The notes under the pieces: model-generated
The model's input: the letters and a program-made list of their open reading frames with translations, nothing else
What the model was told of the DNA's origin: nothing
Databases searched by the model: none
Part shown: in pieces, positions 46,359-62,677 of the stretch
Layout: every line of letters begins with the position of its first letter
How positions within the stretch are numbered: position 1 is the first letter of the stretch
Made by a program: the position numbers and the translations under genes
Source: Stegostoma tigrinum
Lineage: Eukaryota
Assembly (NCBI RefSeq): GCF_030684315.1
Contig: NC_081355.1
Span: forward strand, 57,645,909 to 57,709,908
Reading direction: 5' to 3'
Length of the DNA: 64,000 bases

Positions 46359-46652
<294 letters not shown>

Positions 46653-47420
46653 TCATAAATACACAATGCAAGCAGTGCGGACATTCCCCTGTATGTTGTT
46701 TTCAACATCCACTCGTCATCTCTGCTCTTACAGAACCCCTTTGAAATATTTGTGGCTGAACTAAGTATTTAGAGGATTTGCCAAGGGTCTGGTTTAAAAT
46801 GCAAAATGTCTTTTTGGCTCCGAGTGGAACCTTCTTACAGCAAAATGGTTTTTGAAAAGAAAAACAGATTTTCAGTGCAAATCACGTCGTGCTCTTGATA
46901 GTTTATTTACATCCCAGCGGTTGCCGGAGTAACATTGCACCTTGTTTAGAGGTTGGAGTATTAATATTTCAGACACAGGAATGACAGGTAGCGACAATCG
47001 TCAGCTTTTATGTGTGTGTTTTTATTTTTCAAAACGATTCGATTCTAACGCTAGCAATTGAAATGACAATTTCACTCTTGTAGTTCGAGCTCCTATCTTA
47101 TGGCACCGAAGTAATTCGTTTCAAATACGGACTTATATCTACTAAGGGGGTGGGGTGGGGGGGGGATCGCATTACAAGCACCCAAAGATCTTTCACGGAG
47201 TGGAAAACAGAGGGAAAAAAAGCTTCAGTTCTACGACCTTGCCCAATCTGTAAACATACTTTAGACCTGCAATGTATCAGTCCCCATCCATTCAAGAAAA
47301 GACGGTGTTTTTTACCCCGCGTATCAGTAAAGAACATTGCTCTCATTTGATGTTGATAAAAGTGAGTAAACAAGCAATATGTGAGTTGCTGTTAACTTTA
47401 AAGGAACGGAAGTCGAGTGC

Positions 47421-47467
47421 TTTTACGAGGATTGTACTGATTAATTGTGCAATAAAAGTTTTATGAT
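47421..47467. promoter_or_regulatory. HB1-like homeodomain site cluster in the HoxA7 intron
   Basis: TTTTACGA, TGATTAATTG, CAATAAAA and TTTTATGA occur within 47 bp. Confidence 0.6.
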
Positions 47468-47614
47468 TGCTATCTACATACAATACTACGTACATTTGAG
47501 GAACTGGTCCTCAGCTACCATTAAAACTTTTAACTACCTTCAGGATGTAGTGGCGCTCATTTTAACTGGTCATTTGCACGTTTTCTCGTCGCTATGTTAC
47601 ACTATGTCCCATAC

Positions 47615-48008
47615 CTGCATTCCTCATCCAGGGGTAAATCCGGAAATTGCTCTCTGCTTGAGGGTGCACGTTTGTTTGATCCAATTTTTCGCAACCCTGT
47701 TTGCTCAGATCGCTGCAAAGAACTGGAATGTTCTGGTCTAAGGCAGAGCAGCGCAGGTTGTAGGAATCGGAATTTAGGTTATAACCTGTGTTGTACATGG
47801 AAGGGCCGTGATAGATTGCACTGTTAACATTGTACAGGCCGGCCATCGGGGCTGGGAAGGCGCTGGCGCTCGCTCCATAGCTGGATCTTTGTGAGTTGGT
47901 AGCAAAAGCGCAAGAAGTTGCTTCTGTAAAGCCACTCGCGTTCTGGAAAACGGATGTCCCCGCCGTATATTTGGGAAAAAGAGCATTCACATAATACGAC
48001 GAACTCAT
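47615..48008 (-). CDS. hoxa7: HoxA7 coding exon 1
   Basis: MSSSYYVNALF start (ATG 48008); NFRIYPWMR; donor G|GTATGG at 47614. About 208 aa when spliced. Confidence 0.96.
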
Positions 48009-48170: not shown

Positions 48171-49442
48171 AGCATTCGGCATCACAGGTGGTAAATAGCA
48201 TGGTATTCGACTATTTTCAAAAAGATTTTGTGCTAAAATCACGCACAATCTTTTAATGTTGAAAGTATCGATAAGACTGCGTCACCTTAAAAGGTCAACG
48301 TTCTTCTGTTAATTTTTTTTCCAAGCCACTGTGCCATTTATATGTGAAAGGTTTGGGAACGCAGGTATGATTCCAACATTGTTGAGAATAAGATATGCAA
48401 TGAAACTCATACAATTTGGCCGCATATTAAAAGAAGCAGCAATCATGAATAGTAATATACTCGCCCTGGTATAACATTTAGGTGCATCCTACGCTGTTTG
48501 GTTTAAAAGAAAAGGCTGGGTGGAAGAATTGAAAATAAATGAGCAGTTGTATTTCTCTCTTTACTGCCCCCCCCCCCAAATGCTGCACCCGCCCCCCTCC
48601 AACCCCGTGCAGTGGTTTGCTGTATTACGATGCCATTAAGGCATTATACACGGTAAGAAACATTGGGGATTTACTGAATTAAGATTGAATGTACATCTAA
48701 ACTCAAGATTAGAGAATAATCCATGTGGGTAAATTGTAAGGGTTACAGATACAAGAGAAATATTGCAACATCAAAACGCAAAATGGCTGTGATGCTAGCC
48801 TCTGTTACGAACTCTCGGATTTTTGTTTTAACATTTAAGCCTGTTTTTATATTGATTTACTAAAATGGACGAGTTCACTTTGGAGATGACCACATTTCCT
48901 CTGACGGGTTTCAGTGCAACAACTATTCTGTAGAAACCTTTTAGAGTTGCTAGGTAATCTGGTTGGAACCCCGCAGGGGATTTACCCCGGGTATCGTTTC
49001 CGCCTTCTGTTTTACAACTTTTTTTTTCTCTCTCTCGTTTTCTCCCAATCTTCTCGTTAGATCACAGAACTTGACTACGTAGCTGCTGTCCTCAATGTCC
49101 GGGCACATTGTCCAGTTCCTGTGTTTAAGGTTTTCGTTCCTCTCGAGCGGAACAGTTGCTTTTATGTTCCACATTAATGGGCATATTTTGACAGGGTTAA
49201 GCGTAGAAAATCATCGCCAGCATTTACAGCAGCAAGACAGTCTAGCAAGCATGCACCTGGTGCGTTAACAGTAAAGGGTTGTTAAAATAAAAACATGTTT
49301 TTTGCATTTCCGTCTGCGATCCTTTAGGAACTGTTTGCTCTGATATTCTGAAATGTTGTTTTCTTTTGATCTCTGGAGTCTCCGCTGGCATGTCCCAATC
49401 CCTGTGCTAAACAGACTGGCTTTACGCCAGCAGAGACGCTCA

Positions 49443-52294
49443 TCAGGAGATTTTTCTCGCTACCATCGCTCCCCGCTTGTTAAAAGAGTATATTTGCTGG
49501 AAAACGACTGAACGGTCCGCATGTTTCCATATCTCCTGTGCATACCCGCAACGAAACGACGGTAGATGTCCCAGGAAGCGCTCCAGATTATGGTCTGAAT
49601 TCGAAATATTTCCTCTATTAAAATATATTTTATATTTTATGTTTTTTAATCTGGCACAAATATGGTGAGAGTTTATATATAGGATGTCTATCACTGCAGG
49701 CAACGGCGATAGCTACTTATTATCTTCTAAGTCCAGAAGGGAAAAACAGACAGATATCAGAAATCTGGGTTAAGTTCTTAAAAATGAAATATTCCTCTGT
49801 AAAAATGAAATACCGCTACGGATTGCAGTTCGACTGCAAGGAAATAAATCACCAACAATAATCGAGGATGAACAAATCAGAAGAAGGGAACAGTGAAAGA
49901 ATGTATGTTTTCACCAAACCGCTTGCCAGTAAAGTCAACATTTTCATTTGTGTGTTTCTAATCCAAACATAAGAAATGAACGCTGTTAACATTAGGATAA
50001 AGTTTGTTGCTCGACTATGCATCAAAAATATTATTATTTAATAATATGAAATAAATGTTGGAAAAAATAGTTTCTCCTTTTTTTAAAGTTGCTGTTTATT
50101 TCGACCTTTCTCATGGCCCAAAGATTTCCACGCACTGTCAGCCATCGACCATTGCAAATGCACGGCCCCTGAAATGCGTATCCCAACATCGTAATGAATA
50201 CCACAATTTTTTGTGTATTCTATTATTCCAGTAAATAAGTTTCACCACCACTGCTCGAACGTAGAAGGTTTATTGAGCAATAATCTGATTTTTTTTAACT
50301 TTGATTATCTGGGATCTGGAGACGGATTCACCATGGCATTCTATTACCAGCTCGAGCCGGAAGAAGTATGGAGACAAAAAAAAAACTCCACGGATTTTTC
50401 ACATGAATCAGTACATTATTATAGCCATAACTTCAAAGGTTACGATGTATTTTTGAAACAAAATGCAATTGACCCATATGGTTGATCAATAGCCCATGAA
50501 TCGGAGAATTCCCAACTAGTTCTGCTCATTTAGTCTGGAGGCCGAAAGAAAATAAATCATCTGGTGTATTTTGCCAATCCCACATCACTTCTTAATTTCA
50601 CACAGAGACAATTACACAATGTTTCTCCATGCCTTATGTTTTGCTCAAAATTTAAGTGGAAATGGTAGATTTCCGAATTTCTGAAAGTCCATTGTCTTCC
50701 ATATTTCTAGATACAGCTCCTTGTCTAGTCAAGTTTTTTTTCCTTTCCGCATTTGGAACAGCTTGTTATAATTTTATTTTGGTCTGCTTACGGACACGTG
50801 AAACATTAAATAGTATGTTGCATAGTAATGGATTTGTAGCTGGGAAGCCTGTGTAACAATCGACAAAAACGGCACAGTGATCACCAAGCATTCATTAGAA
50901 TTTGTAATCGAATAATAACATAGATATTCTTGACAACATGTTTTGGAATAAATAGATCTCGGATTTCGTTACACATCATTTGCTGTTGTTTTCTACCTAT
51001 TATATGGCTATAAAATTTCCGCCATTCTTTCTATGCAGAGTATTAACGGAAGTACAAGCTTGTTTGCTGTTCTGTCTGAATTCCATCGCGGTTTTGCACT
51101 GTGACGATAAGTATCCGGACTTTATAAATGCATATCGATGTTGAAAATAAAATTGAATGCATTGCACCGAAGTTTCCTTGAGAAGATTAATTAATCCGAC
51201 CGTATTGCACCGAAGTTTCCTTGAGAAGATTAATTAATCCGAGCGTCAGTAGTTTTTATGACTTTCCGCGTTATTTATTGTTATTATTCACGTGATCGTA
51301 GGGGCGTCAATGGTCGAAGAGTTTTTGACTCGAATATACTCATTTTATGGAAGTGAGGAAGCCACCTGTTTCAGTTTCCAAAGAGGCAAGCCATTTGAAA
51401 AAACGCTGGGCAATGGTAACACTTTAACGTATGTGGAAACTTCAGTGACGTTATTTAAATAAACCAGCCGCACTGACACAATACTAACAAATCCGATCAG
51501 CTTTTTCATTCAATCATGCTCAATATGAGCACAATTATACAAAATATTCCCACTGAAAAACGGGCACAATTCAGCGGATATACCGCAGTTTCACCTAACG
51601 TGAAAAATATGACGTGGGAATCTGGATAGAAAAAGAAGATCCAGTATCCACCAAATTGACTTAATTTCTTGACCGAAGTATTAAAAATTTTCTGAAAATT
51701 ATGTTACCAGCCAGTACCTCACATCCAACGAACATTTTACAACATGCTATTAGTAACGCAAAGCAGCCAGATAATAGGTATAGTTTCATAAATGATTACT
51801 AAGCGAAGCCAAGTCATAAATATACTAAAAGGTAATTATATAAAGTTGTATTTATACCTCAGGTTGCAACGTTTAACAATTGGCTCTGAGTGGGAGAATT
51901 TCAGCATTAACAAGTGTGGGTGCATTTGTGCTTAGGTACAGTGTATATGTGCAAGTTTGCTTGAGTTTGTGCGTATTTACATGTGTGTTAATGGATGTGC
52001 ATAAGTGCCCGTGTAACTAGTGTTTTATATATATAAACATCAGCTCTTTTAGGTATGATTAATGCATAATAATTAACGCCATATCAGTTTGAGCTATTCT
52101 TAACTTCCAATCTCTATCCCCTGTTGCACACAGCAGAGCAGATTGAGGAGCAAATTGGAAGATAATCAATTTAAATCGTGGTACTGTACATTAAAAATAA
52201 AACACTGAGGTACAAATGGATTTTTAAACCCTGTGTCAAATGGAATTAATACGTCGACAAATAAGTTGATGGATTCAAAATGAATATACTCCAT
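49443..52294 (-). pseudogene. Possible highly decayed HoxA8 relic (tentative)
   Basis: Start-like (52294-52270), hexapeptide-like (51735-51719) and homeobox-like (49616-49443) fragments occur in the right order and strand. Each is weak and needs indels; see findings. Confidence 0.3.
51161..51246. repeat. 43-bp direct tandem duplication (2 copies, 1 mismatch)
   Basis: ATTGCACCGAAGTTTCCTTGAGAAGATTAATTAATCCGA(C/G)CGT at 51161-51203 and 51204-51246. Confidence 0.95.
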
Positions 52295-52445
52295 CGACCT
52301 CAGTCCATTTTTACAAGTGTCATTTGGGGTAGATGTTTTCATCCTATTTACAACCCACTGCACAAATAAATTCAGGTTTATCGCAGTTAGTACATATTTT
52401 GGCAGCTTCGCGGCACCGTTTTTTAAATTCTTCTGTGGACCACCA

Positions 52446-52459
52446 CTGCCATCTCCTGG
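52446..52459 (-). promoter_or_regulatory. CTCF site between HoxA7 and HoxA9 (C7|9 position)
   Basis: Minus strand CCAGGAGATGGCAG(TG) closely matches the CTCF core CCASYAGRKGGCRS. Same orientation as the 5|6 site. Confidence 0.75.
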
Positions 52460-55415
52460 TGAATATGTAAAATGGCAACTAGGAAAATATAGGCTGAGAA
52501 TGCACGCAAACCCTTTTTAAACTGCGAAGAAGCCAATACCTGTATCGTTTTTCACAATGATCGTTCTTATATCTATAACGTTTAATTGTAAATAGAGTTA
52601 AACCATGCTTCAAAATAGCTAAAAGACCTGTTATTTTTCCACTAGACGCAATAAATTAGTGAAGAGATATTTGAGGGGCCCGTGTTAAAGACGAGACTAA
52701 TAAAGGTCGTTATTTCCGCAGACCCTTTTGTCTAGGCACCCAGACAAAACAAATGGATCGCCTTCTCTGGAAAAATACTGATTGTAGCTGGACAGTTGTA
52801 AACTCATTAAAAAGCGAATTCCAGACGGCTTGCCAGACCCTTCATTTTATTGCAAGTCTCCTTGTGTAGTCTTTGAAGTTCCAGATGCAACAACAGAGGG
52901 CGTCACAACATTATAACCGCTCAGGCTGAGCCCACTTCTTTAAAAAAATATTTTTGAAATCAATTTCGCCATTGTTTAATGAAATAATAAAACAAAACAA
53001 TGATTGAAATGATACTCGAGCGTTAGCCGGCAGATACTGAAGAATACTCCAAATAAAGACCGTCAGTGTCGTGGTTTATGCACTTCGCCCCCTTAACCTC
53101 CAGCGTTTTACACCCAATAAACGCTTACAGCAGTCATTTGCTTTTATTGCGATACACCACTCTGGATTTTACTAACAACAGCCACTGCCAAGACTTCTAA
53201 CTACTCGGGCCTCTCTGCCCAGTTTCCAAATCATCTGAATCCCACTAAATCTATCCAAACTGTCGTCGGGGTCTTTAAAAAAAGTTACTAGGGATCTTAC
53301 AGTTGGAAGGAAAGTTACAAAAAAAAAGCCAAACACTACCCAACATTCTCTTTAGACTAATGTACTTTTCTTCCGAAGAACTCGACAGTGCTGGGTTGAC
53401 TAGTTAAAGAAATGGCGGCAGGGATTTGAGCCAGTGCGACTTTCTAGAATTATTTGCCTCGTTATAATGCGATAAAATCTCAACAATTTTGGACCTCTTC
53501 ACACGGACAAGCAACTCAAGATTATTCATTCCAATTCGTAGCAGAAGTGCTGCATTTCTCGGATAAGTAGCGCACAACAAATCATATATATAACCAGAGG
53601 CCTTGGCCCATGGCCAGGCGACCGATAGAAGTTATTAATGCACAGTTTTGCACGTTCTCAGGTTAATTGGTGATAACCGGGCGTTAAGCTCAATCGCATT
53701 CTGAATCTTTGTCATGAGATCCGTTTCCAAGCCAATGTTGCTAGATCACACCTTCTATTTTCTTCCCTTTTTCATAAACTCCAATGCTATTCTAATTTTA
53801 GTTACCTCTCTAAGTCACGTTATGTCAACAGTGGCGATAACATTTCGTTGCAGTATTTACTAAGGGCAAGCCGAACTTCGAATCACGTTTGCAATGCCAG
53901 ATTTTGTAGCAAAATCCAAAGATTGAATGTGAAGTAGATCACTAATATTTGCAAACATTGTAGTTGGGTTATATTACGGGCACAGTTTTTAATCTTAGTA
54001 AGAGAACTGGGTGGTTTTCATTGCCATGACAATTTGATTCATTAGCTTCATTAACTCGTTCGCCTGACTATTTACGTTTTGATTCGCCTATTTAAAATAC
54101 GGTAAAAGGAAATGTGCACATTTTAACATTTTTCTCCTCGGAATGGAGAACTATGGGCATCCTGCAGTGCTGGTGAAGTAAAAATGTAATTGAGGAGTTC
54201 CATGTCATTCAGAAAGAGAGAGACCATATTTTATATGTAGTCAAACATATATTTTATTAGACAACAAATAAAATGACATTTCATTACAAACAGTATTGTT
54301 TGGTCAATATGACACGAGGTAATCATTTCAAACGTGTACACAAGTGTAAATGTGTTGCTCTACAGTTTTAAAGACGGCCCCCCTCCCCAGTTAAAACACA
54401 TTGGCGGTATATGTTATTTCTATTGCACCCAGGCATTTTACTTGTACACATTACATTTATTGACAATGTTGTTTGTTTACTTATTCCATCGCATAAATGT
54501 GTCAAAACAATTTTAAGGGTGACATTTACACACAAAACATAGGTAGTTACTAGTTATACATATAGGTAGTTTTAAACCAAATCTTACACTTTTCTTTGCA
54601 CCACAACACCGATAAATACAAAGTGTCTGAGAACTTTATTCGTGCTTTTCTCACAACAGACAAGAGTATCGTGTAGCATTATGCTCAGCGCTGCTCTTTG
54701 AAATACAACTTATATTAGCATTCTATGCAAATCAGTTTCATATAATTTCTGAAGAACAACACAATCGTCATGCACCCCGGGCAAGGCCGTTACTCAGTCT
54801 CACAAAGACAGCGAAAGCCTGGAGTTTCTACAGGTTCATTCACAGTGAAAATAATACAATATATGTTCCAAGTTCACCACGAAAATAACATTTCATATGC
54901 ACTAAACAGCCTGTTCTCTTTATATTAAACATCCTGAGTTAAATTGAGATATTCCTTTTTTTGTTTACACGATCTTGACTCGGACACCGCCCAAGCACAA
55001 AGGCCCAGTCACAGGGATAATCACGACAACAGACACAAGGATTCAAGTATATAAGCAGCCTCGTTTGCTGCATGTAAAACAAGTAAATATTAAACGAGTA
55101 CAGTATTACTGAATTACTGTCCACACTGAATAGTCGTGGATTAAGAAAAGGTAGTTTTCATGTAAAGTAAGGTAGATTCCGTAGCCACATACTTAACCTT
55201 GCCGTAAATGTCTCCCCTCTTTGGTTCCCAACTAACAAGTGTATCAGTCTTTTTACCCACCAAATGCAGTCCAGAACGGGCAAAAGAATAAATTGTGCTA
55301 ATGGGATGACAAAATGTACACATAGTCTTTCTGAAGCAGGGCCTAACTCGATTGTAATTGTGAATTAGTCTTTTTTTTTCTCCTTCACACACACACAGTA
55401 ATATTCTAATTCGTG

Positions 55416-55657
55416 TCACCGGTCGTCTTTAGGTCGTTCCTTGTTGATTTTTTTCATCTTCATCCTCCTGTTCTGAAACCAGATTTTAACTTGCCGTTCG
55501 GTGAGATTAAGGACTCTGGCAACCTCATATCTGCGGTCTCGTGTGAGGTACATATTAAACAAGAATTCCTTCTCCAGCTCCAAGGTCTGATGCTTGGTGT
55601 AGGGGCAACGTTTCTTTCTGGTAGATCTTGCATGCAGCCAATTGGCAGAAGGGTTAT
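55416..55657 (-). CDS. hoxa9: HoxA9 coding exon 2 (homeodomain)
   Basis: [74 protein letters not shown]; the STRKK and YTKHQ motifs are A9-type. Acceptor cacttctAG at 55659-55658. Confidence 0.97.
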
Positions 55658-56312
55658 CTAGAAGTGTGAAGGAAACACACTTAATATATTTTCCTTTTAC
55701 ACGCGAGTCAAAATGTTGCAAAGTTCTCATAATCAAAACACTAGTGCAGATAAACAAATCTTAAAAAAAAGCTGAGGTCGTGCTGGATGAATAAGGGTGT
55801 TGCTACACTTCTAAGTGTTTTCACTGACATTTCAACTCAATACGATTCGTCTTGCTCAATGAACAAACTCTATGAAAGGAGCCCAAAATAAATTAGAAAA
55901 AAAAATATTTTGACGGTCTGTAAATTAGACGTAAATAATCCAATACTGTGCCCAGTTGTTCTGAAATTCGAAATAATAATAGTTTGCCCTGCAGCTTTCG
56001 CCCATCATTTTTGTTTGCAACAAATGCACCTGAATTAGAGTTAATTAGATCAAATATCTTTCCCCCTCTCTTCTACAACGAATGGAAATTAGTTCAGTTC
56101 AGATCGGAGTTGTGCTCATGACACTGCCGAAATGTACAGCGTTAAGCTTAACCAATTGTTTGAAAACTGTTTTGAGTTATGTAATTAAATAAAATAACGT
56201 AACACTGGAAACAGATTTTGTCATCTCGCCGTGCAATGTAGGAATATGTAACCGTTTGAATTTAAAATCTTTGTCTGGAAAAGTAATACAAAAATGTGGT
56301 TTCCACACTTAC

Positions 56313-56853
56313 TTGGATCCATGTGTAGCTTATCTGCGTTTGACTCAATCTCTCCATTATTTTCAGTGAAGGAAACCTCGCTCACACGTTTGTCGACAGG
56401 AGAAGGTCCACAAGTATAATCTGAGAGGGCTAACGTGTGTGTTTCAAACGTGGTGCAGTCACTCCTGCGCGCAGCTACAGGCTCGGGCTTGATGCCGTAG
56501 TGTCTACTGGAAGGTAACCCGGTGAAAGACAGGGTTCCCGGCATGGGCTCTAGCCAGGAGCGCATGTACCTACCATCGGGCGCGGCGGCAATTGGCGCCT
56601 GGTGCATGTATGGGTGATAAACAGTGGGCATATTGGCAGAGCTCTGCGCATGAACGGGGCTCCAAGAGGTGCTGAACACGTTGGCTTTGGACTGGAAGTT
56701 ACATGGGGAGAAGTCGGGGTGCTCAGCAAGAGCTGTCTGTCTGGAAGACTGAGCCAGTGGACCCGAGACATATCTGGACGACAGCAGCTCCTCGTTCTCA
56801 TGCATGATAAGAGAGTCGACATAATAATTGCTGATAGTCCCTGATGTCGACAT
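56313..56853 (-). CDS. hoxa9: HoxA9 coding exon 1
   Basis: MSTSGTISNYYVDS start (ATG 56853); DGRYMRSWLEP and HYGIKPEP motifs; donor A|GTAAGT at 56312. About 260 aa when spliced. Confidence 0.96.
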
Positions 56854-62593: not shown

Positions 62594-62677
62594 AACTGCA
62601 GTAATTCAGGCAGTTTCGTGTTGTAGAGATAGACTTGAGCCCCAACAACATGAAACTACCTAAATCACACATCAGCT
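62594..62677 (-). ncRNA. mir196: pre-miR-196 (HoxA-cluster copy, mir-196b position); mature 5p at 62641-62662
   Basis: Exact TAGGTAGTTTCATGTTGTTGGG on the minus strand pairs with CTACAACACGAAACTGCCTGAA (62605-62626) across a short loop. It sits at the expected position 5' of Hox9. Confidence 0.97.

What the first reader, a model, noticed from the sequence alone, without database searches (positions are those of the whole stretch)
49443..52294. Candidate fossil of the lost HoxA8 gene between HoxA7 and HoxA9
Three minus-strand fragments appear in gene order. (a) 52294-52270, ATG-g-AGT ATA TTC ATT TTG AAT CCA, reads M-SIFILNP against PG8 MSSYFVNP, mostly by single-base changes. (b) 51735-51719, ATG TTC GT- TGG ATG TGA, followed by G|GT, resembles the PG8 hexapeptide MFPWMR with a 1-nt deletion and Arg changed to stop. 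(c) 49616-49443 reads RG..RIQT./LERFL.HLPSFRCGYAQEIWKHADRSV.FQ.....NKR..M..RK against RG....[12 protein letters not shown]...[34 protein letters not shown], with the HL..DRSV register equal to YL..ERQV. The implied exon 1 is ~575 bp and the intron ~2.1 kb, with the CTCF site 150 bp upstream. Gnathostome HoxA clusters lack a functional A8, and slow-evolving sharks are where a relic could survive. Caveat: I searched for these motifs, and (c) needs several gaps, so chance cannot be excluded.
Basis: inference. Interest (0 to 1): 0.7.

Follow-up and report, generated by a model that had tools for sequence, protein, structure and literature searches.

The report
Faint HoxA8 relic beside misread fragments
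The three gene-like scraps reported between HoxA7 and HoxA9 in this shark-type genome score no better than chance, but a different 96-base stretch right beside one of them resembles half of a Hox DNA-binding domain better than chance in protein-level tests and is possibly (about even odds) a decayed trace of HoxA8, a body-plan gene that jawed vertebrates lost.

Summary
The letters of (a), (b), (c) are there, but they score at chance against profiles of this genome's HoxB8, C8 and D8. Ranks were (a) 1030 of 8632 peaks and (c) 394 of 7354 or worse; (b) is expected 0.46 times per interval. Nothing between the fragments aligns. The CTCF site lies in a block paralogous to HoxB9–B8 DNA, 5.0 kb 5' of the B8 start, so an A8 start 165 bases from it is implausible.

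Just 3' of (c), 49393–49298 (−) reads gap-free as homeodomain residues 27–58 (12–13 of 32 identical). It beats 545 of 545 control chunks with BLOSUM62 and two HMMs; 1–7 of 1500 shuffles of the interval match it. Its 5' extension is mildly supportive (2–5%). DNA-level profiles, PAM250, the 3' tail and exon 1 give no support. A start-like motif at 51063 is borderline.

Eight scan notes from other cartilaginous-fish genomes report similar faint A8 relics (unchecked).

The parts
49298..49393 (-). Gap-free, stop-free match to homeodomain residues 27-58 (helix 2 to helix 3), TCQRRLQRSKENNISEYQSKQFLKDRRRKCKK; candidate HoxA8 relic (called c')
   Evidence: Best non-gene tblastn hit in 183 kb, E 0.014-0.061. 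With BLOSUM62, 0 of 53, 0 of 192 and 0 of 300 controls score as high; four further statistics give the same. 45-46 of 96 nt identical.
49394..49477 (-). 5' extension of c': homeodomain residues 1-26 with small frame-shifting gaps, preceded by a pyrimidine run and AG (49477-49476); overlaps the end of fragment (c)
   Evidence: Anchored extension exceeded by 1.9-4.7% of control positions. 85 identities and 87 mismatches to C8 over residues 1-58. Acceptor-like sites fall in 16% of 15-base windows.
51027..51063 (-). Start-like motif resembling the first 12 codons of B8/C8, without ATG and with one extra base; borderline, possibly the 5' end of the relic
   Evidence: 0 of 53 in-cluster chunks and 0 of 250 shuffles as good; 2 of 256 mixed chunks. 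After allowing for 32 windows, 24 of 53 and 30 of 250. No extension. Relatives do not restore the ATG.
51289..51294 (.). E-box CACGTG, 231 bases 5' of the start-like motif (188 without a 43-base duplication private to this species)
   Evidence: 7 of 14 Hox starts examined have one at -121 to -163; none of the 3 PG8 genes does. No difference listed in organism B at 51272-51305.
52446..52459 (-). CTCF-like core, paralogous to the site between HoxB9 and HoxB8
   Evidence: one mismatch to a recalled consensus; the B site has none and lies in the same aligned block (L002:1448)..
52380..53183 (.). Non-coding block paralogous to HoxB9-B8 intergenic DNA (L002:1364-2215); holds the CTCF site and two aligned AATAAA (52851-52846, 53148-53143)
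   Evidence: blastn E 2e-10; nhmmer E 6e-17 and 2e-8. About 3% divergent in organism B against 6-8% for 48.5-51.9 kb.
52270..52294 (-).
51719..51735 (-).
49443..49616 (-).
46359..48008 (-). HoxA7 (flanking gene)
55416..56853 (-). HoxA9 (flanking gene)

Best explanation
The three reported fragments are chance look-alikes in non-coding DNA, while the gap-free stretch 49393-49298 beside fragment (c) matches homeodomain residues 27-58 above protein-level controls and is possibly the decayed homeobox exon of HoxA8. Shown: this is the HoxA9-A7 interval. A block shared with the HoxB9-B8 interval, with its CTCF site, marks the 5' side of the Hox8 slot. The slot from that site to the Hox7 start is 4,451 bases here and 7,724 in HoxB. 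The relic candidate cannot encode a working homeodomain. Inferred: after the HoxA/HoxB split, A8 drifted under relaxed selection, which would explain the conservative replacements and the well-kept second codon positions. It then died, lost part of its locus by deletion and has eroded since, so that only the second half of its homeobox, and perhaps its first dozen codons at 51063, can still be read. It likely has no coding function; the working elements of the interval are likely the CTCF boundary and the block around it.
For: c' was the top non-gene hit in the first protein-level search of 183 kb. With BLOSUM62, 0 of 53 in-cluster chunks, 0 of 192 flank chunks and 0 of 300 local shuffles reach its score for any of the three PG8 queries; with BLOSUM45, 0, 0-2 and 0. 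Best-of-24 and mean-of-24 homeodomains, a 24-sequence HMM and a PG8 HMM each give 0 of 545. In 1500 shuffles of the whole 7.3-kb interval, 5-7 (B8) and 1 (C8) reach it; shuffled queries reach it 2 and 0 times in 500. The independent 5' extension is exceeded by 1.9-4.7% of positions. Residues 1-58 span 176 bases against 174 expected. Strand and place fit: the match ends 1,290 bases 5' of the A7 start, against about 1,650 in HoxB. The stretch has no other copy in the genome search. An older relic survives in this cluster: both homeobox exons of a HoxA14 remnant rank first in 84 kb.
Against: DNA-level tests are not significant. The residue 1-58 profile puts c' first in the slot, but 1-8 of 53 real chunks and 24-83 of 150 shuffles score as well; best ungapped DNA segments are matched by 26-47 of 53. 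PAM250 gives 6-10 of 53. The eight codons after the match score worse than 93% of control positions. There is no Pfam hit at E<=10. Identity by codon position is 11-14, 23-24 and 8-11 of 32, a skew that neutral decay does not predict and that picking by BLOSUM score would produce; in the A14 remnant it is more even. Simulated neutral decay reaches this score in 21% of runs at 0.5 substitutions per site, 2% at 0.7 and none at 1.0, while paralogue fourfold sites suggest about 0.7 per lineage. Exon 1 is not detected by DNA or protein tests. Whole-gene and whole-locus models are at null level. The paralogue group is not resolved: B10 scores 60, C8 55, B8 and D8 49. I ran about eight families of tests, and four mutually exclusive homeobox positions looked plausible by eye, so at least three are chance.
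Confidence: 0.47

Rival explanations
1. No recognisable HoxA8 survives. The gene was deleted or eroded past detection, and c' and the 51063 motif are the best of many chance matches.
For: The slot is 3.3 kb shorter than in HoxB between shared anchors. The chain model of the B8 and D8 loci is at null level (20 of 40 and 11 of 40) while the positive control scores +33.6 against -19 to -26. CpG-matched whole-gene tests are null. Planted fossils at 0.5 substitutions per site were found 25 of 25 times, and at 0.7 21-25 of 25 times with few indels. DNA profiles for c' are not significant.
Against: c' beats all 545 control chunks in several protein-level statistics and all but 1-7 of 1500 interval shuffles, and its 5' extension is mildly supportive. 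Planted fossils at 1.0 were mostly missed (1-6 of 25), so null whole-gene tests do not exclude a relic.
Confidence: 0.43
2. A relic exists but its homeobox lies elsewhere: at 50356-50320, 707 bases after the 51063 start-like motif (D8: 701), or at 49150-48975.
For: The window for residues 13-24 ending at 50323 is matched by 0 of 256, 2 of 53 and 3 of 250 controls; its chain with the 51063 motif by 6 of 256, 8 of 53 and 11 of 250. The 48975 site ranks 3 of 1074 bins and 5-47 of about 1400 peaks.
Against: Anchored extensions of both sites are at the 11th-94th percentile of controls. The D8 gene aligned to 51066-50171 is matched by 21 of 186 controls. Neither site has a protein-level signal.
Confidence: 0.07
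3. One reading: start at 52294, hexapeptide and donor at 51735-51717, homeobox at 49616-49443.
For: Order and strand are right. (b) is the best hexapeptide-like match in 48200-52600. A homeobox profile started at 49616 is in the top 3-10% of positions, though that position was picked by eye.
Against: Each fragment is at chance. The exon between (a) and (b) does not align and is 150 nt longer than in B8 and D8. The paralogous CTCF site is 5.0 kb from the B8 start.
Confidence: 0.03

Closest known systems
HoxA14 and HoxB14 pseudogenes of cartilaginous fishes (PMC3707753, passages seen); the HoxA14 remnant of this genome (L012:6323-6631)
   Same: A dead Hox gene read in its ancestral slot and strand, with a gap-free homeobox piece scoring E of about 0.01-0.06 by tblastn.
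   Different: The A14 remnant shows two exons, each ranked first in 84 kb, in order around the PG14 intron, 56-57% identical at DNA level and significant in DNA tests (0-2 of 53). c' is one piece, 47-48% identical and significant only at protein level. Coelacanth and lungfish keep A14 (PMC3038165, passages), so its loss is younger.
HoxB8, HoxC8, HoxD8 of the same genome (L001, L005, L003)
   Same: Slot between the PG9 and PG7 positions; 12-13 of 32 residues shared with c', among them the serine at homeodomain position 35.
   Different: They are intact two-exon genes. c' has Phe for Trp48 and Asp for Asn51, stops and frame shifts 5' of it, no ENNKDKFP-type tail and no detectable exon 1.
CTCF boundary between HOXA7 and HOXA9 (CBS7/9; PMC6917035, passages) and the CTCF position shared between Hox8 and Hox9 across gnathostome clusters (PMC5504073, passages)
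   Same: Core motif at 52459-52446 in the A9-A7 interval, with an aligned paralogue between B9 and B8.
   Different: Binding and orthology to the human site were not tested here; no mammalian sequence was on hand.
HoxC9 and HoxC10 pseudogenes of this genome (G000:C204 near 70193-70342; L007:3813-3959)
   Same: Broken homeoboxes in their cluster slots.
   Different: Much younger: 58-91 bits in the same DNA profile method and tblastn E down to 1e-14, against at most 8.5 bits for c'.

Membership tests
   577 nt against 427/427/454; extensions at the 36th-89th percentile
   165 bases from the CTCF core, against 5,037 in HoxB
HoxA8 pseudogene, relic at 49473-49298 | In the Hox8 slot (3' of the paralogous CTCF block, 5' of the A7 promoter), on the cluster strand | tested here: met
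HoxA8 pseudogene, relic at 49473-49298 | Homeodomain similarity above matched controls, protein level | tested here: met
   0 of 545 with BLOSUM62 and HMMs; 1-7 of 1500 shuffles; not with PAM250
HoxA8 pseudogene, relic at 49473-49298 | Homeobox similarity above matched controls, DNA level | tested here: not met
   1-8 of 53 real chunks and 24-83 of 150 shuffles as good
HoxA8 pseudogene, relic at 49473-49298 | Similarity continues in register beyond the picked piece | tested here: inconclusive
   5' side exceeded by 1.9-4.7% of positions, 3' side by 93%
HoxA8 pseudogene, relic at 49473-49298 | Residues diagnostic of paralogue group 8 | tested here: inconclusive
   B10 60, C8 and A10 55, B8 and D8 49, A7 and B7 43
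HoxA8 pseudogene, relic at 49473-49298 | An exon 1 with hexapeptide 5' of it | tested here: not met
   Only a 12-codon start-like motif at 51063 without extension
HoxA8 pseudogene, relic at 49473-49298 | Orthologues in distant lineages converge on Hox8 | not testable with these tools
   Only relatives 6-8% apart covered the slot; their differences at this place were not listed
CTCF boundary between Hox9 and Hox8/7 (CBS7/9 type) | CTCF core motif in this interval, shared between clusters | tested here: met
   consensus recalled; PMC5504073 passage
CTCF boundary between Hox9 and Hox8/7 (CBS7/9 type) | Bound by CTCF and insulating in vivo | not testable with these tools
   needs ChIP or Hi-C

The most novel reading that the evidence does not exclude
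Cartilaginous fishes keep a readable two-part fossil of HoxA8, a gene that no living jawed vertebrate is known to use: an E-box and first codons at 51294-51027, and a near-colinear homeobox at 49473-49298 whose conservative changes record a spell of relaxed selection before death. Pooled across sharks, rays and chimaeras it would give the ancestral A8 homeodomain and show whether the loss came once or twice.
Probability: 0.25. Interest if true: 0.62.

Novelty: new member of a known kind. Interest (0 to 1): 0.36.

Why it matters
HoxA8 is absent from the mouse, human and coelacanth clusters (PMC3394115 legend; PMC4686793 passage) and, by general knowledge, from all gnathostomes studied. A real relic would show that the gene died in place rather than being cut out whole. 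It would date the loss against the duplication that made HoxA and HoxB, and would allow the ancestral protein to be reconstructed. Hox relics of this kind are known (A14, B14), so the gain is a new and older member, not a new kind of thing. The negative part also matters for this scan: hand-picked Hox motifs in the right order arise by chance in this interval. The A/B paralogous block is a firm, reusable landmark for the Hox8 slot.

Tried and rejected
The three lowest p-values (0.01-0.03) fall on a purine-rich patch at 49194-48997, and for C8 the reversed sequence scores about the same.

Local and glocal DNA profiles, a joint two-exon model, a whole-gene model and a whole-locus chain model were all at null level with in-cluster or shuffled controls. 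Flank DNA is an unfair control for DNA profiles (CpG ratio 0.23 against 0.85), so one search was redone with matched controls. In one search the (b) window was one codon off and it covered QxFPWM; one search has the exact test.

Promoter plus start models for the 51063 motif: 6-22 of 64 controls as good. A 70-base match of the B8 intron to 51926-51857 (E 0.004) was set aside: 2 of 22 control chunk-strands gave E<0.01 with half as many tiles, and the chain test did not support it. Rfam gave only mir-196. No repeats of note apart from a 43-base duplication; no second copy in the genome searches.

Sequencing runs: no RNA holder listed; X15 and X16 laid nothing on 50980-51480, which proves nothing. 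The two read layouts did not list differences at (a), (b), (c) or c'.

Literature: ten searches (listings seen) returned no listed paper describing a HoxA8 relic; one search was swamped by unrelated genes (25 of 2,565 listed). PMC2746220 (parts 1-2 of 3 read, whole text searched) has no 'Hoxa8' or 'pseudogene'. The horn shark, three-lineage, elephant shark and Santini cluster papers were not held. I have a vague, unverified recall that an A8 pseudogene may be mentioned in that older literature, so prior publication is not excluded. No supplements were opened.

Full report
Setting. The window holds HoxA3 to HoxA9 on the minus strand and mir-196 at 62598-62671. The genome also has HoxB, HoxD and a partly broken HoxC cluster. 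D14, D5, B10 and the eroded C cluster point to an elasmobranch (inference). B8, D8 and C8 are intact, with first exons of 427, 427 and 454 nt and introns of about 425, 230 and 3,740 nt. All profiles were built from these three genes.

Observation. None is above chance. In 320 kb of non-coding DNA on both strands, (a) ranks 1030 of 8632 peaks and (c) 1360 of 7267 or 394 of 7354, by the assumed decay. With CpG-matched controls, 53 of 53 in-cluster chunks and 250 of 250 shuffles hold a better match than (a) or either end of (c). (b) is the best of its kind locally but is expected 0.46 times per 7.3 kb. The gap-free core of (c) is 20-22 of 63 nt identical, chance being 26%. Extending exon 1 from (a), or back from (b), gives scores that 36-89% of control positions reach.

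Map. Window 52380-53183 aligns with the HoxB9-B8 interval (E 6e-17 and 2e-8; E 2e-10), and the CTCF-like cores at 52459 and L002:1448 fall in register. A CTCF position shared between Hox8 and Hox9 in gnathostome clusters is reported in PMC5504073 (passages), and a human boundary between HOXA7 and HOXA9 in PMC6917035 (passages). In HoxB this site is 5,037 bases 5' of the B8 start; fragment (a) is 165 bases from it. From the site to the Hox7 start there are 4,451 bases in A and 7,724 in B. The Hox8 slot is therefore about 52400-48250, and it is 3.3 kb shorter than in B. Relatives differ by about 3% in the shared block, 1.4% in the A9 3' region and 6-8% across 48.5-51.9 kb (table 8, the listed pieces of run X11). 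The slot is the least constrained part of the interval.

Power. Fourfold sites of 9 same-group paralogue pairs are 55 of 156 identical (from the 20 pairs), about 0.7 substitutions per site per lineage. Planted fossils were recovered 25 of 25 times up to 0.5. At 0.7 they were recovered 21-25 of 25 times with few indels and 13-16 of 25 with many; at 1.0, 1-6 of 25 times (full-length mode scored at 0.5). The planted copies were drawn from the profile, so these rates are optimistic. Young pseudogenes (C9, C10) score 58-91 bits. An earlier scan note pointed to an A14 remnant 36 kb beyond the window, which I checked. Both homeobox exons rank first in 84 kb, 56-57% identical at DNA level, and 0-2 of 53 controls match them. 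This is what a real old relic looks like here.

Whole-gene tests. DNA alignment, local and full-length profiles, a joint two-exon model, a whole-gene model and a chain of the B8 or D8 locus all give null results in the slot. The chain model gave 20 of 40 and 11 of 40 controls as good, while the shared block scored +33.6 against -19 to -26. An evenly decayed, complete A8 at 0.5 or less is excluded; an older or partly deleted one is not.

The one signal above controls. The first protein-level search gave as its best non-gene hit in 183 kb the stretch 49393-49298, directly 3' of (c): residues 27-58 without gap or stop, 12-13 of 32 identical. With BLOSUM62 none of 53 in-cluster chunks, 192 flank chunks or 300 local shuffles reaches it; BLOSUM45 gives 0, 0-2 and 0; PAM250 gives 6-10, 24-40 and 38-65. 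Four further statistics, two of them HMMs, each give 0 of 545. Shuffling the whole 7.3-kb interval 1500 times reaches the score 5-7 times for B8 and once for C8, so p is about 0.001-0.005 before, and about 0.01-0.04 after, allowing for the families of tests I ran (my estimate). The 26 codons before it extend in register better than 95-98% of control positions. An AG with a pyrimidine run ends two bases before the aligned first codon, the offset of an in-frame AG in B8 and C8; such sites are common (16%).

Against that signal. DNA profiles rank it first in the slot but not above controls (1-8 of 53, 24-83 of 150). The tail is absent, Pfam is silent and the paralogue group is unresolved. Second codon positions are far better kept than first (23-24 against 11-14 of 32), which neutral decay does not give. 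Either A8 drifted under relaxed selection before it died, or this is a rare chance hit picked by a matrix that rewards second positions.

Other candidates. A start-like motif at 51063-51027 is the best match to the first 12 PG8 codons (0 of 53 and 0 of 250 controls; 2 of 256). It favours C8 and B8 (12.5 and 11.4 bits) over PG5, PG6 and PG7 starts (8.5 at most), though D8 scores only 6.7. It fades beyond 16 codons and does not extend. Once 32 windows are allowed for, 24 of 53 and 30 of 250 controls do as well. In organisms B and C three differences are listed in its first 45 bases: two shared ones at third positions of the supposed frame, and one in C only that moves away from PG8. The missing ATG and the extra base stay. 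Homeobox-like pieces at 50356 and 49150-48975 fail their extension tests. Only one of four such positions can be real.

Mechanism and odds. Shown: the slot, the anchors, the shortening, the chance level of (a)-(c), and the protein-level excess of c'. Inferred: relaxed drift, death, partial deletion and erosion of A8, with c' as the surviving piece (0.47). The main rival is that nothing recognisable is left (0.43). The working elements of the interval are likely the CTCF boundary and the shared block. Its two AATAAA are aligned in A and B, and a deep contig of run X14 ends at 53157, nine bases before one of them. This suggests a distal Hox9 poly(A) site; Cdx or posterior-Hox binding is the alternative. 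X14 is not on record as RNA.

Prior knowledge. Ten library searches showed no paper on an A8 relic, but key cluster papers were not held (see Tried and rejected). Eight notes of this scan report faint A8 relics or the CTCF reading in other cartilaginous-fish genomes. They carry no sequence, look-ups by sequence found nothing, and I could not check that they mean the same site. They are leads, not support.

Verdict. A neighbouring relic stands at about even odds. It would be a new member of a known kind; interest 0.36.

Noticed in passing
window 53148-53143 and 52851-52846 (-); L002 near 2179 and 1865: Two AATAAA sit at aligned places in the HoxA and HoxB copies of the shared block. A deep contig of X14 runs from HoxA9 to 53157, and contigs of X17 and X19 end at 54278 and 54257 near another AATAAA at 54258. 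HoxA9 and HoxB9 may share a distal poly(A) site just 5' of the CTCF boundary.
   Followed up: partly
window 51161-51246: A 43-base tandem duplication that organisms B and C lack.
   Followed up: yes
L012:6323-6631 (-): HoxA14 remnant with both homeobox exons around the PG14 intron; used as calibrator.
   Followed up: yes
L014 near 6405 (-): A stretch between HoxA13 and Evx1 scores above the A14 remnant with the D14 profile; not examined.
   Followed up: no
G000:C204 (L005, L006, L007, L021/L022): HoxC remnants: an intact C8 in repeat-rich DNA, a diverged open homeobox 3' of it, and broken C9 and C10 homeoboxes.
   Followed up: partly
window 51926-51857 (-): 70-base likeness to the first part of the B8 intron, including a CCAAT box (E 0.004), followed by TTTATG-type sites; out of step with the other anchors.
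   Followed up: partly
window 51289-51294 and 50795-50800: Two CACGTG E-boxes in the slot; the first shares 11 bases of context with the HoxA7 promoter box.
   Followed up: partly
L001:6739-6661 and L003:5257-5176 (-): B8 and D8 share an 80-base element about 340-430 bases 5' of their starts (E 5e-4); no copy was found in the A slot.
   Followed up: partly
window 62598-62671 (-): mir-196 precursor between HoxA10 and HoxA9.
   Followed up: no
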